Origin: a virus
IMG/VR virus record: IMGVR_UViG_3300035034_002799
Location: 21,207-85,206 of that record
Strand: one strand, 5' to 3'
Length of the DNA: 64,000 bases
The notes beneath the pieces were generated by a model. That model worked only from the letters and a program-made list of their open reading frames with translations, was not told where the DNA came from and did no database searches. Each line of letters starts with the position of its first letter. Position 1 is the first letter of the stretch. Of the stretch, positions 2,818 to 58,906 are shown piece after piece. A program made the position numbers and the translations under genes.

Positions 2818-3948
2818 ATGAAAACAGCAATAATGATACCAGCTCGCTCAGGGAGTAAAAGAGTTCCGAATAAAAATTTAAGACTATTAAGTGGGAAACC
2901 ACTAATTACTTACGTTATTGAAACTTGTCTTAAAACGGATTTAGACGTTTGGGTGAATACAGACGATTTAAAGATTATTAATATGTGCCAAGATTTATTC
3001 CCAGAAGTAAATATCTTTAAAAGAAAACCTGAACTTTGTTCAGATACTGCTACTAATGATGATTTTATGTTGGATTTTATGAACAAAGAATTACGTTACA
3101 GTCATTTTCTTCAAGTCCTACCAACTTCTCCATTTGTAACTTTAGATGAAATTAATAATTTTGTATTGGCTATGAAAAGTCACGATACCGTTGTTTCAGT
3201 AAAAAATGCTCAAATTGGATGTGTATATGGTGACAGACCAATTAACTTCTCCAAAGATAAAAAGAACCCACCCTCACAGGAAATGACTCCTATCGGAATT
3301 TATGCCACTTCTTTAATGGGTTGGGAACGAACCACTTTTATTGATAATATGAATGAACTAGGCTGTGCGTATCATGGTGGTTTAGGATCAATAAAGTATT
3401 TTGAGCTTAGTGGGTTCTCTACTATTGATATTGACAACGAATCAGATTTTTTACTAGCAGAAGCGGTTGCTCAATTTATCCCTTTTCAAAGTCTCTATAA
3501 AAAGTTCTACTATGAAGATGGACAGTATATCGACTATTTTGTACCCAGAGTACTGAAAGATGATGGTATTGAAAAAACCACAGAAGTTAAACCAAACCAG
3601 AGAGTGGTTAGTGTTACTAATTTAATGCAAGAAATGACAGACCAAGAAGCTTGGTATAAGACAATTGTAGACTCCGATAGTAATTCGTGTACAGTGGTTA
3701 ATCAAATGCCAGGAGAAGGTAACCGCCGCCATTATCACGCTAAGTGGAATGAGTGGTGGTATATTATTAGAGGTCAATGGAGATTCGATATTGAAGATGA
3801 GTCATATGTCGTAAAAGCTGGTGACTTAGTGTTTATTGAAAAGGGGAATAAACATCAGATAACGGCAATTGGTAATACCATTGCTTCTAGGTTAGCAGTG
3901 TCAAGATATGACGTTGAACATATTTATGCGGAGAAGCCAATTAGATGA
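2818..3948 (+). CDS. Acylneuraminate (CMP-ulosonate) cytidylyltransferase fused to C-terminal cupin
   Basis: IPARSGSKRVPNKN, PTSPF and IDIDNESDF (NeuA/CMAS family); cupin HYHAKWNEWW...GNKHQI. Confidence 0.85.
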   Translation: MKTAIMIPARSGSKRVPNKNLRLLSGKPLITYVIETCLKTDLDVWVNTDDLKIINMCQDLFPEVNIFKRKPELCSDTATNDDFMLDFMNKELRYSHFLQVLPTSPFVTLDEINNFVLAMKSHDTVVSVKNAQIGCVYGDRPINFSKDKKNPPSQEMTPIGIYATSLMGWERTTFIDNMNELGCAYHGGLGSIKYFELSGFSTIDIDNESDFLLAEAVAQFIPFQSLYKKFYYEDGQYIDYFVPRVLKDDGIEKTTEVKPNQRVVSVTNLMQEMTDQEAWYKTIVDSDSNSCTVVNQMPGEGNRRHYHAKWNEWWYIIRGQWRFDIEDESYVVKAGDLVFIEKGNKHQITAIGNTIASRLAVSRYDVEHIYAEKPIR

Positions 3949-4265
3949 GCTTTGTACATCACAAAACTAATGGTAAAAAACTAGGAGCGAAACTTCTCTT
4001 TGAGGGAGAAGACTATTCGGTCTATGTTATCAATGAAAAAGAAGGGAAAGTAATACCCAATCATATGCATAGTCATTGGGATGAATCATGGTATATTATT
4101 AATGGATTATATAGCATTACAATTGAAGGTAAGAATGTTTTTGCTTACCCAGGTGATTTTATTACAGTAGAGAGAAATACTCGACATTCTATTAGATGTG
4201 CATCAGATAATGCCACTCGTCTTGCTATTTTCAAAAAAGATGTGGGGATTGAGTATGAAGATTGA
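3945..4265 (+). CDS. Cupin domain protein
   Basis: HMHSHWDESWY...GD...NTRH metal-binding cupin motifs. Confidence 0.85.
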   Translation: MSFVHHKTNGKKLGAKLLFEGEDYSVYVINEKEGKVIPNHMHSHWDESWYIINGLYSITIEGKNVFAYPGDFITVERNTRHSIRCASDNATRLAIFKKDVGIEYED

Positions 4266-4962
4266 TTTTACGGGAAAGAGGGTTTTAGTTACTGGAGGAA
4301 GTAAGGGTATTGGTAAGAAACTCGTTGAAGATTTTAATAGTTTGGGTGCTGATGTGTATTGGACGAGTACTAAAAAAGTTTGCAACCTAAAGCATTGGCA
4401 AGTTGATCTTACAAATTATAATGAAACTATAGAATTTATAAAATGGATTAAGACTATGGAATTTGATATTCTCATTAATAATGCAGGTACTAATAAGATT
4501 GGACCTATTGAAGAATATGATATAAGGGACTATGAACAAATAATCAACCTAAACCTAACATCGTGTTTCAAAACAACACAAGCGGTTATTCCTCACATGA
4601 AAGAAACTAGTTGGGGGCGAATTGTGAACATTACTTCAATTTCAAGTGAGATTAGTATGCCTCTTCGTTCTGCTTATTGTTCGAGTAAATTTGGCTTACT
4701 TGGTTTAACAAAAGCTTCTGCTGTCGAATTGGCTAAATATGGTATTTTAGTAAATTCAGTTGGACCAGGGGTTACTGAAACAGAATTAACAGTTGATGTA
4801 CTTGGCAGAGAAAAGATGAACGAAATAGCATCTAATGTACCTATAGGTCGTTTAGCTACTGTTGATGATATTTCAAAAACAGTCATGTTTATGTCAAGTG
4901 ATTTAAATACTTATATGGTAGGTCAAAACGTTATTGTTGATGGGGGGTATACTTGTGTTTAA
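4255..4962 (+). CDS. SDR family NAD(P)-dependent oxidoreductase
   Basis: TGGSKGIG, NNAG, YCSSK, VDGG. Confidence 0.92.
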   Translation: MKIDFTGKRVLVTGGSKGIGKKLVEDFNSLGADVYWTSTKKVCNLKHWQVDLTNYNETIEFIKWIKTMEFDILINNAGTNKIGPIEEYDIRDYEQIINLNLTSCFKTTQAVIPHMKETSWGRIVNITSISSEISMPLRSAYCSSKFGLLGLTKASAVELAKYGILVNSVGPGVTETELTVDVLGREKMNEIASNVPIGRLATVDDISKTVMFMSSDLNTYMVGQNVIVDGGYTCV

Positions 4963-6004
4963 AGTTAAATCATATAAAGGGATATATAAGGTAGAAACTA
5001 TTGATCATTTAACTTTCGATGATAATAAAGGTGATATTATAGTAGTTGATTCTTTTATTTGGGATCAATATATCTCAGTACTAAACCACATGGATATATT
5101 TGATGCTTCTGTATATGTATTAGAAACAACCGAAGAAACTAAAACGTTAGAAGAATCACAAAAGTTAATAGATAAGATGATTCAGATTGGCTTTAATAAG
5201 AGTAATAAACTTATTGCTGTTGGTGGCGGTGTTATTCAAGACCTTGTATCGTTTACAGCCTCTATATATTCAAGAGGTGTTGATTGGGTGTTTTATCCTA
5301 CCACTCTTCTCGCTCAATGTGATAGTTGCATAGGAAGTAAGACTTCCATAAACTACAAAGGCAGTAAAAATAAGTTGGGAGGGTTTCATCCACCTAAAGA
5401 GATTTATATTTACCGAAAGTTTCTTGAAACACTTCCAGAGTCAGAGATAAAATCAGGCATTGGGGAAATGCTACATTATTTTTTATTGGACCATAATTTT
5501 GACATATCAGAAAAGATGGTCAATGATGAAAATGTTTTAGAAAATATAGAAGAGTATGTAAAAGAAAGTCTCTCAATAAAAAAAGAAATGATTGAAAAAG
5601 ACGAGTTTGATAAAGGAGAACGTAACTTATTTAATTACGGTCATACTTTTGGACACGCTATCGAATCAATCAGTAACTATGAAGTCAATCATGGACAAGC
5701 AGTTACATTGGGAATGGAAATAGCTAATAGAATTTCATTAAAAAAAGAGTTAATCTCAAAAGATGTTTATAAAAGACTTAATAATATACTTATAAAAAAT
5801 ATACCTAACTATGGAATCAATAATAACGATAAATACGTACAAGCTCTTAATAACGATAAGAAAAACATTAGTAATAACTTAACATGTATATTACTCACAA
5901 GTGAATATGCTATAAAAACAGAAATTGCCTACGAAGATGTAGTGGAGGTGATTAATGAGTTATTTGGGGATAATTTAAATTATCCCATAGATTTTATGAT
6001 TTGA
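4955..6004 (+). CDS. AroB/3-dehydroquinate synthase-related sugar-phosphate cyclase or phospholyase
   Basis: GGGVIQD, PTTLLAQCDSCIGSKT, NYGHTFGHAIE, HGQAV; GTG start overlaps the SDR stop. Confidence 0.85.
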   Translation: MFKVKSYKGIYKVETIDHLTFDDNKGDIIVVDSFIWDQYISVLNHMDIFDASVYVLETTEETKTLEESQKLIDKMIQIGFNKSNKLIAVGGGVIQDLVSFTASIYSRGVDWVFYPTTLLAQCDSCIGSKTSINYKGSKNKLGGFHPPKEIYIYRKFLETLPESEIKSGIGEMLHYFLLDHNFDISEKMVNDENVLENIEEYVKESLSIKKEMIEKDEFDKGERNLFNYGHTFGHAIESISNYEVNHGQAVTLGMEIANRISLKKELISKDVYKRLNNILIKNIPNYGINNNDKYVQALNNDKKNISNNLTCILLTSEYAIKTEIAYEDVVEVINELFGDNLNYPIDFMI

Positions 6005-6011: not shown

Positions 6012-6791
6012 ATGAAAGTTTATAGTTTAACAAAGACACTAGATGATTACGTTGATTTTTATATTAACGACCCTTCCGAAGCGGAAGTTATTGTTGTTGG
6101 TGGGTCAAGTATTGATCTCGAAAAATTTCCTAAACTCAAATACATATTTAAGTGTGGAGTTGGGGTAGATAATATACCAGACCTTAAAGACACTGGTGTT
6201 AAATTGATTATGCCTTCCGAATTGACAAAAATCAAAATTTACGATGAGGTTTCTTCATTTGCTGTATTTTTAATTTTACAATCTCATTATAGAAAATTAG
6301 GTAATGTTTCTAAATGGGAAAAAGAAGAAAGAAAAACACTTTCTGATAAATCATGTCTAACAGTAGGGAGCATGGGTAATATTGGTAGATTTGTTTTTGA
6401 CAAATTAGAAGATTTGTTTAAAGATAATGTTGGATTTGATGTGAATTCTTTTTTCCATACTACATTAGAAAAGGAAATGAAGTCGGCAGATATTGTAACC
6501 CTTCATTGTCCTCTTACTGATGGTAATAGAGGAATGATAAAAACAGAATGGCTTAAAGATGATGTGATATTGGTTAATACCGCAAGAGCAGAATTAGTAG
6601 ATGAAAATGAATTATATGAATTCCTAAAAAGTAACCCAAAGGCAACTGCCGCATTTGACGTATTTTGGGAAGAACCATATAAAGGTAAACTACTAGAACT
6701 TGATAACTTCATTGCCACACCACACGTTGCAAGTATGGGTGATGGTTTTCGTAAAGGTCTGTATAGAGACTTGATGGAGTTATTAAAATGA
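6012..6791 (+). CDS. D-isomer 2-hydroxyacid dehydrogenase (PGDH-like)
   Basis: GVGVDNI, LHCPLT, LVNTARA, DVFWEEP, TPHVAS. Confidence 0.9.
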   Translation: MKVYSLTKTLDDYVDFYINDPSEAEVIVVGGSSIDLEKFPKLKYIFKCGVGVDNIPDLKDTGVKLIMPSELTKIKIYDEVSSFAVFLILQSHYRKLGNVSKWEKEERKTLSDKSCLTVGSMGNIGRFVFDKLEDLFKDNVGFDVNSFFHTTLEKEMKSADIVTLHCPLTDGNRGMIKTEWLKDDVILVNTARAELVDENELYEFLKSNPKATAAFDVFWEEPYKGKLLELDNFIATPHVASMGDGFRKGLYRDLMELLK

Positions 6792-7756
6792 AAATTGGGA
6801 TAATTGGATATGGTAAAATAGGAAAGATTAGACATGAGGTTTGTAAACAACTAATACCTAATGCTGAATATATGATTTATGATCCAAACGAAGAAACCAA
6901 TTGTAAGAGTAGTCAAGAAGTAATAGATAAGACAGACCACGTATTTATTTGCACGCCAAATTTTTTAACCTCTGATTTAACTATAAAATGTTTAATGGCT
7001 GGTAAGAATATTTTTTGTGAAAAACCACCAGCATTAAATTATGATGAGTTGCTTGAAGTTAATTATGCATACAGTAAAAACCGTAATTTGACTTTATTGT
7101 ATGGATTTAATCATCGCCAATACGACAGTATTCAAAAGATGAAAGAGTTTATTGACAGTCAAGAAACTGGAAAAATTTTATGGATGAGAGGAAGGTACGG
7201 AAAGGCAATGGGTGATCCTAATACTACAGGATGGAGAGCAGACCCTAAAAAATGTGGAGGTGGTATTCTTTTAGACCAAGGTATTCATATGTTAGATTTA
7301 ATGAATTGGTTTGGTGGGGATTTTGATACAGTTCAATCCGTCATAACAAATAATCTTTGGGGTATTGAAGGAATAGAAGATAATGCATTTTTAAATCTTT
7401 ATAATAGCTCGGATAACATTTCAGCATCGCTCCATTCGACGATGATAGAATGGAGACATATATTTTCATTAGAAATTGTTTTAGAACGAGGATATGTTGC
7501 TCTCAATGGTTTAAAGACTCCATCTGGGTCTTATGGTAAAGAAGAGTTAACCATATGTAAAGACAAACATTTTGATTCCGATACGTCCACTAAAGAAACT
7601 ATAGAGTTTAAGAACAATGATACTTGGTACAAGGAAGTACAATTATTTTTTGATAGTATTTTATCTGGAAAAAATAAAACTAATATAGAAGACGCGCTTG
7701 AAGTAATGAGGTTGATTAAGGAGGCTTATAATGGTATTAATGAAAAGACTCCCTGA
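6788..7756 (+). CDS. Gfo/Idh/MocA oxidoreductase
   Basis: GIIGYGKIG, CEKPP, GFNHR, GGGILLDQGIHMLD. Confidence 0.92.
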   Translation: MKIGIIGYGKIGKIRHEVCKQLIPNAEYMIYDPNEETNCKSSQEVIDKTDHVFICTPNFLTSDLTIKCLMAGKNIFCEKPPALNYDELLEVNYAYSKNRNLTLLYGFNHRQYDSIQKMKEFIDSQETGKILWMRGRYGKAMGDPNTTGWRADPKKCGGGILLDQGIHMLDLMNWFGGDFDTVQSVITNNLWGIEGIEDNAFLNLYNSSDNISASLHSTMIEWRHIFSLEIVLERGYVALNGLKTPSGSYGKEELTICKDKHFDSDTSTKETIEFKNNDTWYKEVQLFFDSILSGKNKTNIEDALEVMRLIKEAYNGINEKTP

Positions 7757-8963
7757 AGATTTTTATAAAGATAAAAAAGTAATTGTTATTGGACCGTCAG
7801 AAGGTGCTCCTAAAGAAGTTGAACAAGTTAACCTAGATGATTATGATTATGTTATAAGACTAAACGATCATTTTTACGACTCTGATAAACATGGTCTAGG
7901 TAAAAGAACTGATATAATTTATCATTCTCTTCTTAGTGGTCAATATAATAAAGACCATCTAACTTATTTAATAAAACACAATATTAAACTTATTGCTAGA
8001 TACTGTAGTCCTAATAAAAAAATTGATGGTTATTTAAGAATGTGTGGAGACGAAACCCCAGATTGGTATCTTTTTAATGAAGGAAGAGCCAAACGCTGTC
8101 CTATTGTATTAAAGTGTTGTCCAAGTACTGGAATTCTTGCAATATATGACGCATTAACGGATGGCGCTAAAGAAGTAGCTGCTTTAGGTTTCGATTTTTA
8201 TGAAACATTTTACACTGAGCGTCCTATAGAAACTATGAAACCAAAATCAATAAGCCGTATTATAAATGGTAACCATCGCCCAGCGACCCAACTTAGAAAT
8301 TTTACTAAATGGGCTATGTGTAATAGAAGATTCAATCCAATTGGTAGATTTAAAGAACTTTTTGAAAGGGAGAAAATGATCATGAGTGAAGAAAAATTAT
8401 TTCTTAAAAATAGAGTACAGGATGCCGCTAGAGCATCGCTTAATTTAGAATTGACGAGCGCATATGAATTCGCAGAAAAGATTTTTGAATTGAGGAAATC
8501 AGGTAAGAAAGCTATTTTCATGGGTAATGGTGCTTCGTATACTATCGCAAACCACGCTGCTCTTGATTATATGAGCCAACTGGGTATTCAGACGTTATGC
8601 GCAGCAGACCAAGCAGTTCTTACTGCGTTTGCTAATGATTTTGGGTATGACCACGCCTTAGAAAGATACTGTAAGATTAACTATAAAAAAGGTGATATTT
8701 TAGTTTGTGTTAGTTCAAGTGGTAACTCACCAAATGTAGTTAACGCTGCTAAATGGGTCAAAGCTCAAGGAGGAACTGTTGTTACGTTTACTGGATTTGA
8801 GCAAGATAATAAATTATCTGAGATAGCAAGCAGTAACTTTTGGGTAAACAGTAAAGTATATAACATAGTTGAATCTGTTCATAATCTTTGGCTAGCTATG
8901 ATTTGTGATCTTATGATTGAATGGATGGGTGATGGTGTAGGTACTCACGGTATTAATATATGA
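7731..8963 (+). CDS. GT29-like (sialyltransferase-like) domain fused to GmhA-like SIS phosphosugar isomerase
   Basis: N-term DDYDYVIRLN...GKRTD, PSTG...GFDFY; C-term GNGAS, ANDFGY, SSSGNSPNV, VESVH; AAGGAGG RBS. Confidence 0.75.
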   Translation: MVLMKRLPEDFYKDKKVIVIGPSEGAPKEVEQVNLDDYDYVIRLNDHFYDSDKHGLGKRTDIIYHSLLSGQYNKDHLTYLIKHNIKLIARYCSPNKKIDGYLRMCGDETPDWYLFNEGRAKRCPIVLKCCPSTGILAIYDALTDGAKEVAALGFDFYETFYTERPIETMKPKSISRIINGNHRPATQLRNFTKWAMCNRRFNPIGRFKELFEREKMIMSEEKLFLKNRVQDAARASLNLELTSAYEFAEKIFELRKSGKKAIFMGNGASYTIANHAALDYMSQLGIQTLCAADQAVLTAFANDFGYDHALERYCKINYKKGDILVCVSSSGNSPNVVNAAKWVKAQGGTVVTFTGFEQDNKLSEIASSNFWVNSKVYNIVESVHNLWLAMICDLMIEWMGDGVGTHGINI

Positions 8964-9004: not shown

Positions 9005-9012
9005 TATAAATA
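9005..9012 (+). promoter_or_regulatory. T4-type late promoter TATAAATA
   Basis: Exact consensus, intergenic, upstream of ATG 9035. Confidence 0.7.
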
Positions 9013-9034: not shown

Positions 9035-9238
9035 ATGAGTGACACATTAGAAACATTGGCAGAATACTCCAAAAACAAAAATGGTTTGATAATAGGACCA
9101 TCTTCAAATGTTTTACAAGACGTTCGAGGAATTGATGTTGATGGATATGACGTAATTGTTAGATTGGACGGTCATTATAATAGGAAAGATAAAAGGCTTG
9201 TACCACTAGGTATATTTAGGAATTTATTAAATGACTAA
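9035..9238 (+). pseudogene. Truncated paralog of the GT29-like domain
   Basis: IIGPSS...DVDGYDVIVRLDGH matches VIGPSE...NLDDYDYVIRLNDH of 7731; ends after 67 aa. Confidence 0.65.
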
Positions 9239-9982
9239 AAAATGTATTATAATGGGAAATGGTCCATCGCTTAATAATGTAAATATAGATGATTTACGTG
9301 GTGTTGATACATTCTCTTTTAATAGAGCTTATATAGCATATAAAGAATGGGATTTTTATCCTACATATTTTGCATGTATTGATTGTAGAACTTTTAGAAC
9401 TATATATGACGACTTGAAAAATCTTATTGATTCTGATAACCCCATTAAGAAATATTTTACGGCTCCGTGGGGTAATATGATTAATGGGATCGAACAAAAA
9501 AATAAAATCGTTCAGACTGATTATACAAATGTCAATGCGATAGAAGACTCATCTTTATGTTTTGGTCAGTACAGTGACTTGAGTTTTCCTAATTTATTCA
9601 AAGGTACATGTCCGTTAGATAATGTTAGTATATGGGCGGTTCAGTTTGCCTACTTAATGGGTTACACTCATGTTGGTATGGTTGGGGTTGATTGTCGTTA
9701 TGTTCCTAGATCAGATGTTAGGCAAATTGAAGGGGGGGGGATTGTGAATTTACTTCTGATGAAGACCCAAATCATTTTAGATCAGATTATTTTGGTAAAG
9801 GGTCGATAACAACTCACCATCATTTGAATAATGGTGTGGCTGGTAATAATTTAGGTGTGTGGGAAAAGTTGAAAGCTAGTTATGTTAAACAAAATGAATT
9901 TAAACTATATTCTTGCACTGAAGGCTCCAGAGTAAATAGGATTTTTAATTATCTACCACTTAAAAAATTATTGGAGTTATAA
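9231..9982 (+). CDS. Maf/DUF115-type glycosyltransferase interrupted by a G9 tract (frameshift at 9732-9740)
   Basis: MGNGPSLN, FSFNR, FAYLMGY...GVD; the -1 frame after the tract gives DPNHFRSDYFGKG...LYSCT to TAA 9982. Confidence 0.75.
9732..9740 (+). repeat. Homopolymeric G9 tract
   Basis: Directly visible; the longest G run I saw in the window. Confidence 0.95.
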
Positions 9983-10687: not shown

Positions 10688-12751
10688 ATGAAAAAAGCAT
10701 TAATCACGGGGATCACAGGACAAGACGGTAGTTACTTAACGGAACTGTTACTGGATAAAGGATATGAAGTACATGGAATAGTCCGTAGGTCTTCGTCTTT
10801 CAATACAGGTAGGATTGATCATTTAGTATCTGATCCTAAATTGTTTAATAAAACGTTACATCTTCATTTTGGTGACCTAACAGACTCAACTAATATTGAC
10901 GAATTAATACGAACTATAAAGCCAGATGAAATTTATAATTTGGGCGCTCAATCTCATGTCAAAGTATCCTTCGAAGTTCCAGAATATACGGCAGATGCTA
11001 ATGCTATGGGACCACTAAGAATTTTAGAAGCTATGAAGAAGCATTGCCCTAATTCTAAGTATTACCAAGCTTCAACCAGTGAGATGTACGGTGGCGTAAC
11101 AGAAGAGATGCCTGAAAAGGGATATAATGAAAACTCTCCCTTCCATCCCAGATCACCATATGGTGTAGCAAAGCTCTATGGACATTGGATTGCTCGTAAT
11201 TACCGAGAGTCTTATAATATGTTTATAGTTTCGTCTTGCCTGTTTAATCATGAATGTTTCGATTCCAATACCCCGATAACTATAAAGAACGGCGAAACAA
11301 TAGATGTCGTTTATATGAGAGACTTCTTACCAGAAAGAAAAGATATATCTAAAGATAATAATATTCTAATCGGAGATTTTTCTAATGAAAATATAGAAGT
11401 ATGGAATGGTAGCGGATATACTAAATTAAAAACTATAACTAGGCGCAAAATAAAAACCTTAGATACTGAAAATAGAAACAAAGTGGTCTCTAATACTAGA
11501 AATGGCTCAGTAGTTACTACACCCCATCACAATTTTCTAATAGGTCAGAAAAAAATACCACAGAGACAACTCAACTTACATGATGAATTAGATCATGGGG
11601 GGTTACCGAAACTAGGTAATCATATTAAAATCACTGAGGCGGAAGCTAAATTTTTAGGAATGTTAGTAGGAGACGGTCATATATGTTCATCTGGTCATGT
11701 TCGTTTGGCGAACCTAGATCACGGTGAAACCTTTAAAGATTTATGCCGATTTCTATTTCCAGTCTTCAATATCAGAGAAGCTAACTACGCATCTGGGTAT
11801 GGTGACAATACTAGACATCATAACGTGTCAGGTATTAGCAGTCATTTAGGTAAATTTTATAGGTCAGAAATATACGACGAACGCACAAAACATAAAAAAG
11901 TACCAAAGCGTATATTAAATTCTTCTTTGGAAGTAAAAACAAAATTCTTGGAGGGATATTATCTTTGTGATGGGTTAAAAAAAGACAAATGTACATATAA
12001 ATTTAAGTCTTTTAAATCCAACTCACCACTATTATGTCAGGGTCTTATTTTACTTATGAATGAGGTAGTTGAAGGTTTCAAATTTAATATTAATACTTTT
12101 GAACAAAACAGTAGATTGTATAATCAAGTAAACATACATAGTGATAAAAAAGGAGATAAAGGACTACATTTGATAAAAAATAATAAAGAACTTAAAAAAG
12201 AGATCATATTAGATGAGTCTAATTGTTTTGTATATGACATAGAAACTGAATGTGGTTACTTACAAGCTGGGGTAGGTTCTATGGTGTTGGCTAACTCACC
12301 ACGTAGAGGTGATACATTCGTAACCAAAAAGATTACAAACTGGTGTAAAAAATGGAAAATGAACCCCAATGAAACTGAGCCGCTTGAATTGGGTAATTTA
12401 TACGCTTATCGTGATTGGGGTCACGCTAAGGACTTTATGAATTGTGTGTATTTAATGATGCAACAAGAAACTCCAGAAGACTTCGTAATAGCTACTGGTG
12501 AAACATACACCGTTAAGGATTTCGTTGAAGAGTGCTTTAATCAATTGGGAGAATCAATAACTTGGAAAGGTGAAGGTATTAATGAAGTAGGACTGGTAAA
12601 TAATAAAACAGTAGTAAAAATCAATCCTAAATACTTCCGTCCTGCTGAGGTGGATATTTTGTTGGGTGATTCATCAAAGGCTCGTAAGAAGCTTGGATGG
12701 ACCCCTGAGTATAATTTTAAAACGCTTGTTAAAGATATGTTGGATAACTAA
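10688..12751 (+). CDS. gmd: GDP-mannose 4,6-dehydratase containing an intein
   Basis: [47 protein letters not shown]; extein is 340 aa. Confidence 0.95.
11255..12295 (+). mobile_element. Intein (347 aa) with LAGLIDADG homing endonuclease in gmd
   Basis: Starts CFDSNT; TTPHH block B; LGMLVGDG and LEGYYLCDG; VYDIET; ends VLAN before Ser+1. Confidence 0.92.
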
Positions 12752-13329
12752 TGACTGAACACGAAAGATGGCTTAAAGATAACGGTGAAGAAAAGCGTTT
12801 AACATACCCATTAAACACCAAAAGTCTTTACGTGGATTTTGGTGCTTATGACGGTAAATTCGCTAGAAAGATTTATGATAAATTCAAATGTCAGATAATT
12901 GCTTATGAGCCTATTCCTAAATTTTTGGATTTATGTGAGAAAAACTTAGAAGGTACAGATGCTACTGTTTTGCCTTATGGTGTTGGTAAAGAAAATATCC
13001 AATTATATGTAGAAGATACTAATGATGCCACCCATCTTTTTTCTAAAGGTAATATTAAAATTGAAGTTAGAGATGTTTATAATCTTATAGGTAAAGATGA
13101 TATAGACCTTCTAAAAATTAATATCGAAGGTGCTGAATATGATGTCTTAGAGAGAATGATCGAAACTGATTTATTAAAAAACGTTCGTTATCTTCAAGTT
13201 CAGTTTCATAAATTTCCTCATGTTGAACGACCAGTGGAAAGAAGACAAAAGATTTGGGAAGAACTTCAAAAAACTCATAAATGTCAATGGTCTTATGATT
13301 TTGTTTGGGAGAGTTGGGAGAGAAAATGA
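12751..13329 (+). CDS. FkbM family methyltransferase
   Basis: DFGAYDG, YEP, IDLLKINIEGAEY, LQVQFH. Confidence 0.88.
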   Translation: MTEHERWLKDNGEEKRLTYPLNTKSLYVDFGAYDGKFARKIYDKFKCQIIAYEPIPKFLDLCEKNLEGTDATVLPYGVGKENIQLYVEDTNDATHLFSKGNIKIEVRDVYNLIGKDDIDLLKINIEGAEYDVLERMIETDLLKNVRYLQVQFHKFPHVERPVERRQKIWEELQKTHKCQWSYDFVWESWERK

Positions 13330-18233: not shown

Positions 18234-18245
18234 TATTACTCCGTT

Positions 18246-22917: not shown

Positions 22918-23012
22918 GATTTTACTTTTTATAGGAAAGAAAAAAGTATAATGAAATGTCACATGGCGGTAATAAATATCATGCACGAACCAATATTAGG
23001 AGGTATCAGAGA

Positions 23013-26799: not shown

Positions 26800-26812
26800 T
26801 CGACCGAATGGT

Positions 26813-35183: not shown

Positions 35184-35185
35184 AA

Positions 35186-35193
35186 TATAAATA
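35186..35193 (+). promoter_or_regulatory. Late promoter TATAAATA
   Basis: Exact consensus upstream of gp25. Confidence 0.75.
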
Positions 35194-35211
35194 GTTAAGA
35201 GGTTCATAAAA

Positions 35212-35604: not shown

Positions 35605-35615
35605 GGAATTAAAAA

Positions 35616-54730: not shown

Positions 54731-54760
54731 TTAAAATATAATTATTTAATTATCACAATA

Positions 54761-54791
54761 AAACTCCTAGTAAAAGCTAGGAGTTTTTTTT
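54761..54791 (+). terminator. Rho-independent terminator
   Basis: AAACTCCTAG-taaaag-CTAGGAGTTTTTTTT. Confidence 0.9.
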
Positions 54792-54824: not shown

Positions 54825-55010
54825 ATGATGGATGAAAAGGTTATCGTGCAGGGCAGTGAACGTGAATTCGATGAACGAGTAGAAAAATGGCATCATAGTG
54901 ATATAATGGTACCATCACAGAGTTACTTATGTCTCACTGATAACGAATGGCATGCCTTTCTTAATGGTAATGTCATATTTTCTGATGATTTGGAGAGTAA
55001 AAAATTATGA
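54825..55010 (+). CDS. Hypothetical protein
   Basis: AAGGAG RBS; ATGA overlap with next gene. Confidence 0.65.
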   Translation: MMDEKVIVQGSEREFDERVEKWHHSDIMVPSQSYLCLTDNEWHAFLNGNVIFSDDLESKKL

Positions 55011-56329
55011 CATTTGAATTTAAAAAATTAACTGGAGATGAACCTATTATCGAAAAGGTCAATCAAGAACCTACTAAAAAAGCTTCGATGATTGGTGGGG
55101 AAACTCCAATTAAAGAAATAGTTAAACAACCTATTAAGATAACGAAGAAAAAGAGAATACCTCCTATTAGTGGTACTAAGGACGGTACTGATCTTTCTCG
55201 ATTGAGACAAGGTAGAGAGCGACATGAGGGGTTTGATGTTGGACAGTATGTTCAGTCAGTTCCTATGTTGTTTAGTAGAGATGGACATAATCAATGGTTA
55301 GGTGATCAATTTAGAGGAGGGCATGCTTTTTTACTTTTGGGTGGTCCTTCTTTCGGTGATTTAATGAAAGAAACCTATGAATTTAAAGGTAAAAAAAGAT
55401 CAGTAAAGGAAATCCTAGATTACCCAGGTCATGTGACTATGTGTGTTAATAACGCAGTAAAATCATATAGACCTAATATGTGGGTTTGTGTTGACAGTCC
55501 TGATCATTTTATTAAAAGCACTTGGCTTGATCCCAAAATCCAAAAATTTGTTCCTTTTTGTCATACTGAAAAAACCATATTTGATAACGAGTCATGGAAA
55601 GAAACCAATACTAAAGTTGGTGATTGTCCTAATGTATTATTTTATCGTAGAAATGAACATTTTCAACATGAACAGTTTATGCATGAAGATACTTTTAATT
55701 GGGGTAGTCATAAGAAATATGGTGGCAGTCGCTCAGTCATGTTAGTAGCTTTTAGATTACTTTATCATTTAGGTATTAGAAATCTATATTTGTTAGGATG
55801 TGATTTCAACATGAGCGAAGATTCTAAATATCATTTTGATCAGGATCGTACTAGAGGATCACAGACGGGGAATAATTCTACATATAAAGCTTTGATAGAA
55901 CGGTTTTCATTAATGAAACCTGATCTCGACGCTCTTGGATATAATGTTTGGAACTGTAATCCAGATTCTCAACTTAAAGTTTTCCCTCACATGAAGTTTA
56001 TTGATGCAGCTAATAGAGCATGCGCAAATATGCCTAATATTGAAACTGAAAGAACGGCTGGTCTTTATGATAGACAAGCGAACATGAAGAAGGACAAAGA
56101 AGTTGACCTAAAGAAAAACGCGGCTAAAAATATAGCCGACCAATATTCAGAAACTGATAGAAAAGAAATCAAAGATAAATTAGATACTGCGCGTATTAAA
56201 CTCAGTAATTTAAAGAAACTTGCTGAACAAGAACCAACTGATGAAAACAATAAAGCGGTTAGGCGAGCACGAACTGAATTCAGGAAAATAGAAAAAGAAA
56301 AGAATAAAATTTGGGGGATCGTTAAATGA
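55007..56329 (+). CDS. Maf/DUF115-like glycosyltransferase with K/P-rich N-terminus and coiled-coil C-terminus
   Basis: LLGGPS, MCVNNA, WVCVD, LYHLGIRNLYLLGCDF, VWNCNPDS. Confidence 0.65.
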   Translation: MTFEFKKLTGDEPIIEKVNQEPTKKASMIGGETPIKEIVKQPIKITKKKRIPPISGTKDGTDLSRLRQGRERHEGFDVGQYVQSVPMLFSRDGHNQWLGDQFRGGHAFLLLGGPSFGDLMKETYEFKGKKRSVKEILDYPGHVTMCVNNAVKSYRPNMWVCVDSPDHFIKSTWLDPKIQKFVPFCHTEKTIFDNESWKETNTKVGDCPNVLFYRRNEHFQHEQFMHEDTFNWGSHKKYGGSRSVMLVAFRLLYHLGIRNLYLLGCDFNMSEDSKYHFDQDRTRGSQTGNNSTYKALIERFSLMKPDLDALGYNVWNCNPDSQLKVFPHMKFIDAANRACANMPNIETERTAGLYDRQANMKKDKEVDLKKNAAKNIADQYSETDRKEIKDKLDTARIKLSNLKKLAEQEPTDENNKAVRRARTEFRKIEKEKNKIWGIVK

Positions 56330-56991
56330 AATACGTTAAAAACATAGAATTAAAAGAAGTTTTTGATGATAATTCATTAGTTCTTTCTGATATTGAAACT
56401 ATGATGGAACATCAGGTTGGGTTTGCTTTTAATCGTAAGATAATCACTATAGCTGAACATGTTCAAATGGGTGGTCTTCGATGTGTTCAATATCCTAACG
56501 AATTTGCTCAGTATTTGAGCTTTATTTTTGATGTGAACGCGGAAACTCCAATTAATACATATATGGAAATAGGGGTAGATAGGGGCGGTACTTTTTTTGT
56601 TACTGACTCTTTTTTAAGATCAATCAATAGTTCTTTTCAAAAAAGTTACGCAGTGGATATTAAAAAGAAAACAATTCAATGGGATGAATATGCTGAAAAG
56701 TTTGATGTTGAGTTTATTTTAGGGGATTCTAAAAAGATTACACCTTTTGAGGTTGATTGGTGTTTAATTGATGGTGATCACACCTATGAGGGAGCAAAAG
56801 CAGATTTCGAGAAGATGAAAAATCATGCTAAATATATTGCTTTCCATGATATTGATATTATTCATAAACAGACGAATGTTAAAAAACTATGGGAAGAATT
56901 AAAACCGAATTACAAACATTGGGAATTTAGAAACAAAGATAGTAGATTTCCAACACCAATAGGGATTGGTGTTATTAAGGTAAAGGATTAA
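56326..56991 (+). CDS. Class I SAM-dependent methyltransferase (Methyltransf_24-like)
   Basis: MEIGVDRGGT, IDGDHTYEG, AFHDI, GIGV. Confidence 0.88.
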   Translation: MKYVKNIELKEVFDDNSLVLSDIETMMEHQVGFAFNRKIITIAEHVQMGGLRCVQYPNEFAQYLSFIFDVNAETPINTYMEIGVDRGGTFFVTDSFLRSINSSFQKSYAVDIKKKTIQWDEYAEKFDVEFILGDSKKITPFEVDWCLIDGDHTYEGAKADFEKMKNHAKYIAFHDIDIIHKQTNVKKLWEELKPNYKHWEFRNKDSRFPTPIGIGVIKVKD

Positions 56992-56992
56992 T

Positions 56993-57877
56993 ATGAGTCA
57001 AGGGTGTATTTTTTTTAATTTTGGTAATAAATGTATGGCTAGACTTTTTGTTGCGATCCATACACTTAGAAAAGTGTATAATGGTCCAGTAACAATAATG
57101 CTGTCCGAAAATGACGAATTTAATAAAGAAGTCTATTCTATATTTGAGAATAAGTATAATTGTAATATTCAATGGTTTGATCTTGATAGGACAGTTAAAA
57201 GAAACCTCAAAAGTGTGCTTAAGCCTATGTTTTTTGAAAACAGCCCTTATGATACGTCAATAATGTTTGATGGAGATTTGGTTTTTGCTAAACCTTTTGA
57301 TGAGTTGTGGGATTGGACTGAAGATAAAGGTTGGACTGTTACTCACTTTATGGGGTGGATGTCAAACGGTAAGAGCATGAGTAAGAGAATAAACAATGTT
57401 CTTAGTGATGTTTTTAATGAGAAACAAATGGCAGCCGCTACTGATAATCACCCCGCTATTAATGTGGGTGTGTTAGGTTATAACAAAGATAAAGGGCGCA
57501 AACTACTTCGTAAGTGGAAACAGGTTACTCAGCAAGTGGCTGGTAAGTTTATTGCTGATGAAATTGCAATGCAAGGTGTTTATTTTTGGTATGATCATTA
57601 TGTAGCCGACGAAAGATTTAATTATTCATGTCATTATGGTAAGATTTTGAAAGAAGCAAAAATTATTCATTATCATGGTAATAAACACACAGGTTTACAT
57701 CGTGAGTCTAGTCGTTTATGGTGGGCATGTGTGAAAGAGATAATGGATAAAGGTGATATTGATATAATCAAATGGCTCAAAGCTGATCCAGATGCTAACA
57801 GGGTATTAACTGAACATCCCGATGAAAAGTTTTTAAAAGAATGTCAGGATGAGTTTAAAGGGTATTGGGATGGTTGA
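56993..57877 (+). CDS. GT8-like glycosyltransferase
   Basis: SPYDTSIMFDGD, INVGV, ADEIAMQ, IIHYHGNKH. Confidence 0.75.
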   Translation: MSQGCIFFNFGNKCMARLFVAIHTLRKVYNGPVTIMLSENDEFNKEVYSIFENKYNCNIQWFDLDRTVKRNLKSVLKPMFFENSPYDTSIMFDGDLVFAKPFDELWDWTEDKGWTVTHFMGWMSNGKSMSKRINNVLSDVFNEKQMAAATDNHPAINVGVLGYNKDKGRKLLRKWKQVTQQVAGKFIADEIAMQGVYFWYDHYVADERFNYSCHYGKILKEAKIIHYHGNKHTGLHRESSRLWWACVKEIMDKGDIDIIKWLKADPDANRVLTEHPDEKFLKECQDEFKGYWDG

Positions 57878-58622
57878 TTTTACAACAATTATTGCTATTG
57901 ATGAACACCATACAAATGAACTTCAATTGGCATGGAGATCATGGGAGCATTTTAAACCAGAAATAGTTAAATCACCAATTATTATTATATATGATGATAT
58001 GCAAGTTGATCCAGAAGAAGGCTGGCTAGGCGAAATAAGCGAAAAATTTGATATTACGTTTATACCTTGGCATCCACCTGAAGGTTTATATAAGGACCAA
58101 CGAGAGAAAATGCTTACTAGTTTCTTTAAGGCAGTTGAGTATGTTCAAACTCCATGGTATTTGAAAATTGATACTGACTGTATCGCAACCAATCACGATA
58201 AGGGTTGGTTGAATCCTGATTTCTTCGTAGATGATCCAGTTTTCGTCTCCAATCCTTGGGGGTATACAAAACCTAATAATACTTTTGATATTATGGATGA
58301 TTGGGCTGATGAACTAGATGCGTTTAGAGGTTCTTCGAGATTGAATTTACCATATGATTCTTTATCTGATTTGGTAAGACATAATAGAATCATCTCGTGG
58401 GTTTATTTTGGTAATGTAGGATGGACTAATACTATGTCTTATATATGCCAAGATTCTGAAGGTAATTATAAGTTACCGTTTCCATCTCAAGACACTTACA
58501 TGTGGTATTGTGCTGAACGTATGAATAGACATTATAAAAGAATAAAATTCAAGAAGTTTGGATTTGAACATTGGCATAATATGAAGAGAATTAGAAATAG
58601 AGTTCAGGAGCTTTTGGGATAA
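57870..58622 (+). CDS. Putative GT-A glycosyltransferase
   Basis: TPWYLKIDTD, SQDTY. Confidence 0.6.
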   Translation: MVDFTTIIAIDEHHTNELQLAWRSWEHFKPEIVKSPIIIIYDDMQVDPEEGWLGEISEKFDITFIPWHPPEGLYKDQREKMLTSFFKAVEYVQTPWYLKIDTDCIATNHDKGWLNPDFFVDDPVFVSNPWGYTKPNNTFDIMDDWADELDAFRGSSRLNLPYDSLSDLVRHNRIISWVYFGNVGWTNTMSYICQDSEGNYKLPFPSQDTYMWYCAERMNRHYKRIKFKKFGFEHWHNMKRIRNRVQELLG

Positions 58623-58624
58623 TT

Positions 58625-58906
58625 ATGTACGATTTTGTTATTGCTGGTGCTGGTGTTAGTGCAGCTTCTTTTGCTGCCGCTTTAAAGCATAAGATAAGAT
58701 ATGTTTATTGTGAGTTAGATAATCCAGTCCCGTTTTATCCAGTAAATACTAAACGAAATAAAAAAATACTTGATGATCTAAAAGGATTGATAAAATTTCA
58801 ATATCCTAAACTTGAACTTTTGGGTAGATTAGGAACCTATAAGTACATTGATATTCACCAAGCAGTTGGGCAAGCACTTAGTCTTGCTAAGAAATATAAG
58901 GAGTGA
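58625..58906 (+). pseudogene. glf: UDP-galactopyranose mutase with large internal in-frame deletion
   Basis: MYDFVIAGAG joined directly to PFYPVN...GRLGTYKYIDIHQAV; only 93 aa. Confidence 0.78.

What the first reader, a model, noticed from the sequence alone, without database searches (positions are those of the whole stretch)
2818..58906. Candidate phage-encoded virion glycan-coat system: donor pathways, about a dozen transferases and a poly-Ser acceptor
Seen: three clusters (2.8-19.7, 26.8-28.4, 55-58.9 kb) encode CMP-sugar and GDP-deoxyhexose synthesis, about 12 glycosyltransferases of different types (GT29-, GT10-, GT2/7-, GT8-, Maf-like), two methyltransferases and an SGNH-like protein. 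I see no flippase, Wzy, undecaprenyl-phosphate transferase or membrane-anchored GT, and no base-hydroxymethylase in this window. A late promoter precedes the GT genes at 9035/9231, and a baseplate-linked protein has two runs of over 100 Ser-rich residues. Known: giant eukaryotic viruses and some actinophages glycosylate their virions. Inference: this T4-like phage builds a complex cytoplasmic O-glycan on its own particle rather than modifying host LPS or its DNA.
Basis: partly seen in the sequence, partly recalled or inferred. Interest (0 to 1): 0.9.

Follow-up and report, generated by a model that had tools for sequence, protein, structure and literature searches.

The report
Phage sugar-gene islands plus poly-serine baseplate protein
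An uncultured T4-like lake phage carries about 25 soluble sugar-making and sugar-transferring genes and a baseplate-region protein with two 100-residue serine runs, so it may sugar-coat its own particle, but the sequence cannot yet tell this apart from remodelling of the host surface.

Summary
The gene content is mostly real. The window is the last 64 kb of an 85-kb IMG/VR fragment, about 42% complete, of a divergent T4-like phage from lake and salt-lake metagenomes.

- **Sugar donors:** a CMP-sugar cassette built round an AroB-like cyclase, with no NeuB or KdsA; a GDP-fucose/colitose-type route; two methyltransferases.
- **Transferases:** seven supported glycosyltransferases and three sialyltransferase-like proteins. 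One of these is frameshifted at a G9 run, and reads G7 and in frame in a second sample. Two further candidates are unsupported.
- **Outside the window:** a rhamnose-type route, a sugar dehydrogenase and another transferase lie upstream.
- **Poly-Ser protein (44522-46906):** confirmed. Its FG-GAP domain resembles proteins annotated as virion structural in T4-like cyanophages.
- **Absences:** no polytopic membrane protein, Wzx, phosphoglycosyl transferase or thymidylate-synthase-type hydroxymethylase in the 85 kb.
- **Not confirmed:** the SGNH-like protein, and the exact count of 12 transferases.

The acceptor remains inferred. I put virion protein O-glycosylation at about 0.4, host envelope remodelling at about 0.33 and DNA glycosylation at about 0.07. 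Co-variation of the sugar genes with poly-Ser proteins could not be tested, because the related contigs are fragments.

Print reads comparable gene islands in cyanophages as host-surface genes. Unchecked AI notes of this scan report similar poly-Ser/Thr plus transferase candidates on other DNA.

The parts
2818..3948 (+). CMP-type cytidylyltransferase (N) fused to a cupin (C)
   Evidence: PF02348 71.1 bits, Cupin_2 50.3 bits; nearest NCBIfam models PseF and KdsB, all far under cut-off. An early-type TGATATAAT lies just upstream.
3945..4265 (+). Stand-alone cupin, paralog of the cupin in the preceding gene
   Evidence: Cupin_2 41.1 bits; 31% identity to residues 281-366 of the 2818 protein.
4198..4962 (+). 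Short-chain dehydrogenase/reductase
   Evidence: adh_short 157 bits. Found next to the AroB-like gene in 78 of 80 cellular loci.
4934..6004 (+). AroB-related cyclising sugar-phosphate phospholyase
   Evidence: TIGR04425 376.6 bits against cut-off 400; DHQ_synthase N and C domains. 46 IMG/VR loci and 194 cellular relatives found.
6012..6791 (+). D-2-hydroxyacid dehydrogenase-like
   Evidence: 2-Hacid_dh_C 99.7 bits. Present with the AroB-like gene in 67 of 80 cellular loci.
6788..7756 (+). Gfo/Idh/MocA oxidoreductase
   Evidence: Three Pfam domains of the family. Present in 66 of 80 cellular loci.
7731..8963 (+). Sialyltransferase-like (GT29/GT42-type) N-domain fused to a GmhA-like SIS isomerase domain
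   Evidence: C-terminal part: SIS_2, gmhA 67 bits, PDB phosphoheptose isomerases at 1e-14. N-terminal part: 242 homologs; 26 of the 50 aligned sequences hit GT29; profile hits 2wml at 4.4e-7 and CstII at 2e-6.
9005..9012 (+). T4-type late-promoter word TATAAATA
   Evidence: Lies 22 nt before the ATG at 9035. Not conserved before the CstII-like gene in 4 of 4 relatives.
9035..9238 (+). 67-aa fragment paralogous to the N-terminus of the 7731 sialyltransferase-like domain
   Evidence: 34% identity over 44 aa; sequence read.
9231..9982 (+). CstII/MptE-like CMP-sugar transferase, frameshifted at a G9 run (9732-9740)
   Evidence: PF01973 26.5 bits, under the cut-off. Intact homologs of 235-279 aa cover both pieces. 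Profile hits CstII at 4e-4. One contig of run X2 has two bases fewer at 9732, which is in frame.
10688..12751 (+). GDP-mannose 4,6-dehydratase interrupted by a 347-aa intein-like insert (11255-12295)
   Evidence: TIGR01472 474.8 bits in two stretches. The insert weakly matches PI-PkoII at E 0.0045.
12751..13329 (+). FkbM-family methyltransferase
   Evidence: PF05050 46.2 bits; TIGR01444 59.8 bits, over the cut-off.
13305..14252 (+). GDP-L-fucose synthase-like epimerase/reductase (Fcl or ColC type)
   Evidence: NF047922 380 bits against cut-off 500.
14228..15082 (+). GT-A fold glycosyltransferase with no Pfam family
   Evidence: Atlas model (pTM 0.92) gives TM 0.83-0.89 to glycosyltransferase clusters. 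No Pfam or PHROG hit.
15079..16242 (+). DegT-family PLP enzyme of the sugar 3-dehydrase type
   Evidence: DegT 257.7 bits. Best NCBIfam model is RfbH, 274.7 bits against 423. The sequence reads FSHH where aminotransferases carry the lysine; this is my reading and the motif is recalled.
16223..17101 (-). GT10-type (fucosyltransferase family) glycosyltransferase
   Evidence: PF00852 30.4 bits against cut-off 23.9.
17082..19148 (-). Two paralogous GT-A glycosyltransferases (17082-18233 and 18246-19148)
   Evidence: Glyco_transf_7C 24.1 and 26.7 bits against cut-off 23. 42% identical to each other.
19006..19740 (-). Glycosyltransferase
   Evidence: phrog_2456 at 2.9e-23. Pfam 7C only 17.4 bits.
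26693..28403 (+). GT8-type (26693-27565) and GT2-type (27534-28403) glycosyltransferases
   Evidence: 26.8 bits against 24.3, and 24.0 against 23.3. TATAAATA at 27497 lies 29 nt before the GT2 start.
33417..39227 (+). Baseplate genes: gp5-like, gp25, gp6-like
   Evidence: phrog_430, phrog_261 and phrog_219/6. Late-promoter word before gp25.
39240..44522 (+). 1760-aa protein of unknown family between gp6-like and the poly-Ser protein
   Evidence: No PHROG, PDB or phage tblastn match. Its stop overlaps the start of the next gene.
44522..46906 (+). Poly-Ser / FG-GAP propeller protein, the candidate glycan acceptor
   Evidence: Two Ser runs, 88 of 115 and 94 of 117 codons, all six Ser codons; FG-GAP_2 at 3.4e-37. 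Propeller is 28-33% identical to proteins annotated as virion structural in cyanophages. One relative of 810 aa also has a poly-Ser run.
55007..56329 (+). Weak sialyltransferase/MptE-like protein
   Evidence: phrog_4603 at 5.8e-6; PF01973 17-19 bits, under the cut-off. Atlas features nearest viral clusters, one of which is 20% PF01973.
56326..56991 (+). Methyltransferase (Methyltransf_24 / CmcI-like)
   Evidence: PF13578 35.6 bits.
56993..58622 (+). Two proteins of unknown family (56993-57877 and 57849-58622); glycosyltransferase status unsupported
   Evidence: No family or PDB support. DxD-like motifs seen by eye only.
58625..58906 (+). Internally deleted remnant of a UDP-galactopyranose-mutase-type gene
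   Evidence: GLF 25.4 bits, under the cut-off; phrog_9677. Matches only residues 306-364 of roughly 370-aa homologs.

Best explanation
SHOWN
A divergent T4-like lake phage carries soluble, cytoplasmic machinery for at least two activated sugars inside the window:
- an unidentified CMP-linked sugar made by an AroB-like cyclase cassette;
- a GDP-6-deoxy or 3,6-dideoxy hexose, with methylation.

Upstream of the window it also carries an NDP-rhamnose-type route and a sugar dehydrogenase. It has seven supported glycosyltransferases and up to three sialyltransferase-like capping enzymes.

INFERRED
These enzymes build a hetero-oligosaccharide in the cytoplasm directly on Ser hydroxyls of phage structural proteins. 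The foremost candidate is the two poly-Ser stalks of the FG-GAP propeller protein in the baseplate gene block. The CMP-sugar would be added last as a cap. The particle would then leave the cell with a mucin-like glycan sleeve on a baseplate or fibre appendage.

The G-run in the CstII-like gene may switch the cap on and off between genomes. No initiating Ser-specific transferase has been identified.
For: - All sugar enzymes and transferases lack membrane segments, and no real gene in the 85 kb is polytopic.
- No Wzx, phosphoglycosyl transferase, NeuB, KdsA or thymidylate-synthase-type enzyme was found, while the controls ring.
- The poly-Ser protein is real and selected at the amino-acid level, since it uses all six Ser codons. 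It is translationally coupled within the gp5/gp25/gp6 gene block.
- Its propeller resembles proteins annotated as virion structural in S-TIM5 and S-MbCM6/25. In S-MbCM25 the match lies in a 7022-aa structural protein next to gp9 and gp7.
- The nearest relative of the propeller protein also carries a poly-Ser run, and sits beside an (SDSSI)n-repeat protein.
- TATAAATA stands 10-29 nt before 9 start codons. These include gp25, the 9035/9231 transferase pair and the GT2 gene.
- The Atlas model of the GT-A protein at 14228 matches, among others, a cluster of 563-aa Bacillota GT-D proteins at TM 0.83 by query. This is a lead only.
- Precedents: virus-encoded glycosylation of giant-virus fibrils (PMC10117803 and PMC9614988, abstract starts in the listing). 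Mycobacteriophage capsid and tail glycans, as summarised in passages of PMC12619734.
Against: - No acceptor is shown and no Ser-initiating enzyme was found. GT-D and GT41 are absent. The MptE-like proteins are short, under the Pfam cut-off, and nearest glycan-acting CstII rather than Maf.
- The CMP cassette, the gmd operon and cluster 3 follow early-type -10 boxes.
- The late promoter before the CstII-like gene is missing in 4 of 4 relatives.
- TATAAATA is not enriched as a word, 14 found against 12.25 expected.
- The sugar genes sit 35 kb from the poly-Ser gene, interleaved with replication genes.
- The SDR/AroB/2HADH/Gfo cassette is a common cellular cassette: SDR in 78 of 80 loci, 2HADH in 67 and Gfo in 66, including several Leptospira. 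This suits surface polysaccharides.
- Only 3 of 6 more complete phage records with an AroB-like gene have large S/T-rich proteins. None has pure poly-Ser, and there was no control.
- The record is about 42% complete, so the absences are weak.
Confidence: 0.4

Rival explanations
1. Host-envelope remodelling. The soluble phage enzymes act at the cytoplasmic face on the host's own undecaprenyl-linked O-antigen, capsule or core intermediates. The host's flippase, polymerase and ligase then export the altered glycan. This would change the infected cell's surface, for example to block superinfection or to stop progeny sticking to debris. On this reading the poly-Ser runs are only flexible linkers.
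For: - The donor routes (Gmd, Fcl/ColC-like, 3-dehydrase-type DegT, RmlB/RmlC-RmlD-like, nucleotide-sugar dehydrogenase) and the GT10, GT8, GT2 and CstII-like transferases are the families used for O-antigens and lipo-oligosaccharides.
- Early-type promoters precede the main operons.
- The AroB-type cassette is widespread in cellular genomes.
Against: - No phage-encoded membrane step of any kind in the 85 kb.
- At least nine transferases would rebuild a whole glycan rather than decorate one.
- Two transferase genes have late-promoter words.
- It leaves the poly-Ser protein unexplained.
- The papers I read offer no experiment for the host-surface reading.
Confidence: 0.33
2. DNA hypermodification. 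Some of the transferases attach sugars to hydroxymethylated bases of phage DNA to evade restriction, as T4 and other phages do.
For: - The sugar genes are interleaved with replication genes: DNA polymerase, UvsX-like, gp41-like helicase, gp32, clamp loader, primase-like.
- Diverse DNA glycans made by virus-encoded transferases are cited in PMC12619734 (Pyle et al. 2024, seen only as a citation).
- PMC12801897 raises this possibility for S-SCSM2R.
Against: - No thymidylate-synthase-family hydroxymethylase in the 85 kb, while the control rings in 10 of 14 genomes.
- CMP-sugar, GDP-deoxyhexose, methyltransferases and about ten transferases are far more than I recall for known DNA glycans.
- About 58% of the genome is unseen.
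Confidence: 0.07
3. Partly decayed cargo. The islands are recently acquired cellular polysaccharide genes that are being lost and have no coherent product.
For: - Frameshifted CstII-like gene.
- 67-aa fragment of a sialyltransferase-like gene.
- Glf remnant of 93 aa.
- An intein-like insert in gmd.
- A nucleotide-sugar dehydrogenase upstream that appears short, 288 aa against a model of 413.
Against: - Most genes are intact, tightly packed and overlapping.
- The core cassette plus gmd, the Fcl-like gene and DegT is kept at 31-54% identity in seven other phage fragments.
- The frameshift is in frame in a second sample's contig.
- Inteins are spliced out and do not inactivate their host protein (established knowledge).
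Confidence: 0.1

Closest known systems
'Cell wall synthesis and modification' / LPS gene islands of large T4-like cyanophages (P-SSM2, S-SCSM1, S-SCSM2R)
   Same: These are T4-like aquatic myoviruses with many transferases (13 in S-SCSM2R), nucleotide-sugar epimerases, RmlC, dTDP-glucose dehydratase, KdsB and fucosyltransferases. They also have FG-GAP/TolB-like virion proteins (passages of PMC12801897 and PMC9602691; tblastn).
   Different: Relatedness is only distant: gp6-like 24-39% over short pieces, and no megablast match. Here the CMP route is built on an AroB-like cyclase without KdsA or NeuB. There are GT29/GT42-like transferases, a 3-dehydrase-type DegT and a poly-Ser baseplate-block protein. 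Those papers read the genes as host-surface or DNA modification, not particle glycosylation.
Mycobacteriophage virion glycosylation (Che8, Corndog, Myrna; Freeman et al. 2023)
   Same: Phage-encoded soluble transferases put O-glycans on structural proteins in the cytoplasm, as summarised in a passage of PMC12619734.
   Different: There, few transferases act on the C-termini of capsid and tail-tube subunits, and the glycans were measured. Here there are about 25 genes, the donor pathways are phage-encoded, the candidate acceptor is a poly-Ser stalk, and nothing has been measured. I could not read the paper itself, because PMC10527164 is not held.
Autonomous glycosylation of giant viruses (Megavirinae fibrils, chlorovirus capsids)
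   Same: Virus-encoded routes to rare bacterial-type sugars plus many soluble transferases and methyltransferases decorate the particle (abstract starts of PMC10117803, PMC9614988 and PMC8456856 in the listing).
   Different: Those are eukaryotic viruses, with different enzymes and acceptors. No homology was tested here.
CstII (GT42, Campylobacter) and ST3Gal-I (GT29) sialyltransferases
   Same: Profiles of the two phage families hit these structures: alignment A2 hits CstII at 4e-4 to 1e-3, and alignment A3 hits 2wml at 4.4e-7 and CstII at about 2e-6. A cytidylyltransferase lies in the same operon.
   Different: The matches are weak and the window's own proteins are under the Pfam cut-offs. 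The donor cannot be a NeuB-made nonulosonic acid unless the host supplies it. The acceptors are unknown.
Maf flagellin glycosyltransferases (PF01973 family)
   Same: A homolog in a related phage passes PF01973, 42.1 bits against a cut-off of 34.6. Maf enzymes put CMP-activated sialic-acid-like sugars on Ser/Thr (abstract start of bioRxiv 10.1101/2023.12.03.569772, listing).
   Different: The phage proteins are 235-279 aa single domains. I recall Maf proteins as much larger, and I recall a solved Maf structure being in the PDB. No Maf structure was among the profile hits.
Serine-rich-repeat and SD-repeat adhesin glycosylation of Gram-positive bacteria
   Same: A long Ser-rich tract is glycosylated in the cytoplasm by dedicated soluble transferases, including GT8-type ones (recalled, not from a call).
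   Different: No GT-D domain. No GtfA/GtfB pair was identified. The tract is homopolymeric Ser rather than dipeptide repeats. The setting is a phage.

Membership tests
Phage virion O-glycosylation system (mycobacteriophage type) | Glycan chemically detected on a structural protein | not testable with these tools
   Needs particles or recombinant protein. This is a metagenomic record only.
Phage virion O-glycosylation system (mycobacteriophage type) | Soluble phage-encoded glycosyltransferases | tested here: met
   Seven supported transferases, none with a membrane segment.
Phage virion O-glycosylation system (mycobacteriophage type) | Transferase genes placed with, or co-varying with, the acceptor structural gene | tested here: inconclusive
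   The transferases lie 16-35 kb from the poly-Ser gene. Seven related fragments hold no baseplate genes. 3 of 6 fuller records have S/T-rich large proteins, with no control.
Wzx/Wzy- or ABC-dependent surface polysaccharide locus | Initiating phosphoglycosyl transferase, flippase or transporter, polymerase (polytopic membrane proteins) | tested here: not met
   No polytopic ORF in the 85 kb. PF01943 and PF02397 are absent while their controls ring. The record is about 42% complete, and the host could supply these.
Nonulosonic-acid / Kdo CMP-sugar pathway | Aldolase-type synthase (NeuB or KdsA) | tested here: not met
   PF03102 and PF00793 are absent; their controls ring in 9 and 11 of 14 genomes.
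Nonulosonic-acid / Kdo CMP-sugar pathway | CMP-forming cytidylyltransferase of family PF02348 | tested here: met
   71.1 bits against a cut-off of 22.6. All specific NCBIfam models are far under their cut-offs.
TIGR04425 AroB-related cyclase cassette | Score over the curated cut-off | tested here: not met
   376.6 bits against 400. Narrowly under, and still the best model by 108 bits.
TIGR04425 AroB-related cyclase cassette | Conserved neighbours (SDR, 2-hydroxyacid dehydrogenase, Gfo/Idh/MocA) | tested here: met
   78, 67 and 66 of 80 cellular loci carry homologs of the window's neighbours within 10 kb. That these neighbours define the family is my inference.
GT29/GT42 sialyltransferase superfamily | Family-level sequence match | tested here: inconclusive
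   The window's own domains are under the cut-offs. Family profiles hit ST3Gal-I and CstII at 4e-7 to 1e-3, and 26 of the 50 aligned sequences hit PF00777. Folding was not available.
GDP-L-colitose pathway (Gmd, ColD, ColC) | Gmd plus a PLP 3-dehydrase with His in place of the Schiff-base Lys, plus an epimerase/reductase | tested here: inconclusive
   Gmd is over its cut-off. The DegT protein is nearest RfbH, under the cut-off, and shows FSHH. The Fcl-like protein is under its cut-off. No ColD- or ColC-specific model was seen.
T4-type DNA glycosylation | Base hydroxymethylase of the thymidylate-synthase family | tested here: not met
   PF00303 is absent in the 85 kb; the control rings in 10 of 14 genomes. 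The record is incomplete.
Serine-rich-repeat protein glycosylation (Gram-positive) | GT-D (DUF1792) or GtfA/B-type initiating enzymes | tested here: not met
   PF08759 is absent. The only GT-B-type hit is weak and outside the window: PF13692 at 20.3 bits, phrog_7162 at 4.6e-30.

The most novel reading that the evidence does not exclude
The phage makes a so-far undescribed CMP-activated seven-carbon sugar or cyclitol, using a GmhA-like isomerase, an AroB-like cyclase and three oxidoreductases, without any NeuB/KdsA-type synthase. GT29/GT42-like enzymes then use it as the cap of a fucose/colitose- and rhamnose-containing O-glycan built on the poly-Ser stalks of a baseplate propeller protein. A slippery G-run switches the capping enzyme on and off. 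This would be a phase-variable, mucin-like glycan sleeve on a bacteriophage particle.
Probability: 0.1. Interest if true: 0.9.

Novelty: new variant of a known kind. Interest (0 to 1): 0.55.

Why it matters
Large aquatic T4-like phages are known to carry many 'LPS' genes. In the papers I could read, their target has never been measured and is assumed to be the host surface.

A phage that pairs such islands with a poly-Ser particle protein gives a concrete, testable acceptor. The test is to co-express the protein with the transferases and look for mass shifts. If it is positive, virion glycosylation would extend from actinophages and giant viruses to T4-like phages of aquatic bacteria. That would bear on phage adsorption, stability, stickiness and grazing.

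Separately, the AroB-type CMP cassette is widespread in bacteria and in 46 viral contigs, and I found no paper on it by name. Its product is an open biochemical question.

Tried and rejected
- **No close relatives.** Megablast of cluster 1 and of the ligase-to-gp6 block against phages found nothing. Close-relative scans of IMG/VR with the FG-GAP domain, the gp6-like protein and P0291 found nothing.
- **Co-variation test, inconclusive.** The seven related phage fragments fetched whole (G002-G006, G008, G012) hold the cassette but no baseplate genes, and no long poly-Ser ORF. The 20-kb flanks of 46 cassette loci hold one short Ser-rich ORF on the antisense strand only. Six fuller records gave 3 of 6 with S/T-rich large proteins, without a control.
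- **Shared N-terminal module.** Proposed in note e1-6122837 for the transferase at 18233(-) and the protein at 59129. BLASTP gives no significant match there, best E 0.29 in another region.
- **Apparent flippase domain.** The Polysacc_synt_C hit on the upstream 444-aa protein (29.3 bits) was rejected. The region has no hydrophobic segment and reads like an RmlC-type cupin fused to RmlD.
- **SGNH-like protein.** No support.
- **Split Glf gene.** 57849-58622 as the missing front of the Glf gene: no similarity. 56993-57877 against the GT8 protein: no significant similarity.
- **Large neighbours of the poly-Ser gene.** The 1760-aa and 1032-aa proteins have no PDB, PHROG or phage match.
- **Polytopic membrane ORFs near the cassette in cells.** Found in 34 of 53 loci of at least 15 kb. 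I judge this uninformative, because I had no background rate.
- **Habitat from small-share runs (X7-X14).** Not used.
- **Literature.** The search for TIGR04425 gave 0 papers. 'Polyserine' with phage and glycosylation gave 3 papers, 2 of them listed, neither on phage particles. Supplements were not opened.

Full report
**What the DNA is.** The window is bases 21207-85206 of an 85,206-bp linear IMG/VR virus record that CheckV rates about 42% complete. GC is 0.31-0.38 and there is no tRNA. It encodes T4-type clamp-loader, RegA, primase-like, gp5-like, gp25 and gp6-like proteins, a ribonucleotide reductase and an NAD ligase. The 21 kb before the window encode a family-B DNA polymerase, UvsX-like, gp41-like and gp32 proteins and the large clamp-loader subunit. 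Nothing in the phage collection matches by megablast. The gp6-like protein reaches only 24-39% identity over short pieces to cyanomyoviruses. Two lake-water runs hold the stretch almost fully, and four salt-lake runs hold 21-45% of its sampled words. It is therefore a divergent, uncultured T4-like phage of saline or fresh lakes, with an unknown host.

**Donor pathways.** Directly after the primase-like gene, and behind an early-type TGATATAAT box, lie seven overlapping genes:
- a PF02348 cytidylyltransferase fused to a cupin;
- a second cupin;
- an SDR;
- an AroB-related cyclising sugar-phosphate lyase (TIGR04425, 376.6 bits against a cut-off of 400);
- a 2-hydroxyacid dehydrogenase;
- a Gfo/Idh/MocA oxidoreductase;
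- a fusion of a sialyltransferase-like domain with a GmhA-like isomerase.

There is no NeuB or KdsA/DAHP-synthase family member in the 85 kb, although the controls ring. The CMP-linked product is therefore not an ordinary nonulosonic acid or Kdo made by the phage, and its identity is unknown.

A second operon, also behind an early-type box, has five genes. They are Gmd, split by a 347-aa intein-like insert; an FkbM methyltransferase; an Fcl/ColC-like reductase; a GT-A protein; and a DegT-family enzyme. The DegT enzyme's best model is the 3-dehydrase RfbH, and it reads FSHH at the place of the Schiff-base lysine (the motif is recalled). A GDP-fucose or GDP-colitose-type product is likely, but no specific model passed its cut-off.

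Outside the window there are a dTDP-glucose-dehydratase-like gene, an RmlC-like/RmlD fusion, a short nucleotide-sugar dehydrogenase and one more transferase.

**Transferases.**
- Five pass Pfam cut-offs: GT10, two paralogous Glyco_transf_7C proteins, GT8 and GT2.
- One more has a strong PHROG match, and one is a GT-A by the Atlas model.
- Three are sialyltransferase-like:
  - The N-domain of 7731-8963 has 242 homologs. Of 50 aligned sequences (the query plus 49 homologs), 26 hit Pfam GT29, and their profile hits ST3Gal-I at 4.4e-7 and CstII at about 2e-6.
  - The gene at 9231 is under the PF01973 cut-off, and its family profile hits CstII at 4e-4.
  - The gene at 55007 has weak matches only.
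- Two further proteins, at 56993 and 57849, have no support.

The gene at 9231 is out of frame at a G9 run. Intact homologs in three related phages span both pieces. One contig from a second lake sample has two bases fewer there, which restores the frame. These are contigs at about 6x depth, and both samples may be the source of this DNA.

**The candidate acceptor.** The 794-aa product of 44522-46906 has two runs, of 115 and 117 residues, with 88 and 94 serines encoded by all six Ser codons. An FG-GAP propeller follows. The gene starts on the stop codon of a 1760-aa gene that follows gp6-like.

The propeller is 28-33% identical to proteins annotated as virion structural in S-TIM5, S-TIM61/66 and S-MbCM6/25, and as 'TolB' in S-SCSM2R. 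In S-MbCM25 the match lies in a 7022-aa structural protein next to gp9 and gp7. Among 120 listed homologs, only the closest, P0291 (810 aa, 42% identity), also has a long poly-Ser run. On its metagenome contig it is preceded by an (SDSSI)n-repeat protein. A structural, baseplate-linked role is thus likely but rests on position and annotation.

**Absences.** A hydropathy scan of all ORFs of at least 60 aa finds no real gene with more than one hydrophobic segment. Wzx, phosphoglycosyl transferase, thymidylate-synthase-type, GT-D and GT41 families are absent, with the controls ringing. With 58% of the genome unseen, these absences are weak evidence.

**Timing signals.** TATAAATA occurs 14 times against 12.25 expected. 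However, 13 of the 14 are on the coding strand, and 9 stand 10-29 nt before start codons. These include gp25, four genes in the late part of the window, the 9035/9231 pair and the GT2 gene. The two big donor operons and cluster 3 follow sigma-70-like -10 boxes, and cluster 3 starts after a clear terminator. In four relatives the CstII-like gene sits inside an operon without a late-promoter word. Timing therefore does not decide the acceptor.

**Relatives.** The AroB-like protein has close relatives of up to 75% identity in metagenomes and in 46 IMG/VR loci. Seven phage fragments fetched whole keep the cytidylyltransferase, cupin, SDR, AroB-like gene and Gmd. Six of them keep the Fcl-like gene and DegT, four keep the CstII-like gene, and three keep GT10. 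Identities run from 26% to 54%. G004, G005, G006 and G008 also have T4-type replication genes, but none of the seven has baseplate genes.

In 80 cellular loci, the neighbours of the AroB-like gene are conserved as follows:

| Neighbour | Loci with a homolog, of 80 |
|---|---|
| SDR | 78 |
| 2-hydroxyacid dehydrogenase | 67 |
| Gfo/Idh/MocA | 66 |
| GmhA-like | 42 |
| Cytidylyltransferase | 24 |
| CstII-like | 4 |

These loci include several Leptospira species. The cassette is thus a common cellular module that phages have taken up.

**What print says.** Passages of PMC12801897 and PMC9602691 describe 13 and several transferases, plus sugar-nucleotide genes, in S-SCSM2R, S-SCSM1 and P-SSM2. They read these as host cell-wall modification, or possibly DNA protection, without experiment. 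A passage of PMC12619734 summarises mycobacteriophage capsid and tail glycans and DNA glycans. Abstract starts describe giant-virus self-glycosylation. I found no paper on TIGR04425, and none on poly-Ser phage proteins and glycosylation.

Unchecked notes of this scan describe similar poly-Ser/Thr plus transferase candidates in other uncultured T4-like phages. I did not test those.

**Verdict.** I favour cytoplasmic O-glycosylation of particle proteins at 0.40, because it alone uses the poly-Ser protein and needs no missing membrane machinery. Host-envelope remodelling with host export machinery stands at 0.33, partly decayed cargo at 0.10 and DNA glycosylation at 0.07. The remainder is for mixed or unforeseen uses. 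Every step from 'enzymes present' to 'glycan on the particle' is inference.

Noticed in passing
window 9732-9740: A G9 run puts the CstII/MptE-like transferase out of frame. One contig of a second lake sample (run X2) has two bases fewer, which is in frame. This could be slippage-based switching, fixed alleles or an assembly error. Only contigs at about 6x depth were available.
   Followed up: partly
window 11255-12295: A 347-aa insert splits GDP-mannose 4,6-dehydratase into two matching halves and weakly resembles the PI-PkoII homing endonuclease/intein at E 0.0045.
   Followed up: partly
window 22956-26318: The ribonucleotide reductase is 1120 aa and matches its PHROG in two stretches. It may also carry an insert.
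   Followed up: no
window 58625-58906: A 93-aa ORF joins an N-terminal GxGxxG-type start to the last 58 or so residues of a roughly 370-aa Glf-type protein. It looks like an internally deleted remnant.
   Followed up: partly
window 9035-9238: A 67-aa ORF behind a late-promoter word repeats the N-terminal motif of the sialyltransferase-like domain at 7731, 34% identity over 44 aa.
   Followed up: partly
L072:3-1433 and L072:1496-3928: On a 15.6-kb metagenome contig, the closest relative of the poly-Ser propeller protein is preceded by a protein with a long (SDSSI)n repeat, 31% Ser. None of the other ORFs resembles the window's proteins.
   Followed up: partly
L118-L197 (cellular loci): The SDR / AroB-like / 2-hydroxyacid dehydrogenase / Gfo-Idh-MocA cassette is conserved across many phyla, including several Leptospira species. 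Its product appears undescribed, and the search found no paper.
   Followed up: partly
L119: A 13.9-kb contig binned as a Thaumarchaeota MAG carries the phage-type set at 30-48% identity: cytidylyltransferase-cupin 47%, cupin 32%, SDR 48%, AroB-like 48%, CstII-like 44%, DegT 30%. It may be a mis-binned phage contig.
   Followed up: no
window 53057-54790: A 557-aa protein has an alpha/alpha-toroid match (SQHop_cyclase_C, 34.8 bits) and one N-terminal hydrophobic segment. A strong stem-loop terminator follows at 54760-54790.
   Followed up: no
window 61225-62463: A Lon-like ATP-dependent protease (phrog_4871, E 3.9e-85) stands behind a late-promoter word. Homologs occur in four related phage fragments.
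   Followed up: no
L001:16890-18224 (before the window): A 444-aa fusion of an RmlC-like cupin with an RmlD-like reductase lies next to a dTDP-glucose-dehydratase-like gene. The Pfam flippase-domain hit on it is spurious.
   Followed up: partly
window 19814-20431: A 205-aa protein has an N-terminal hydrophobic segment and a 3D (MltA-like) domain, behind a TTGACA-N17-TATAAT promoter. It may be a cell-wall hydrolase.
   Followed up: no
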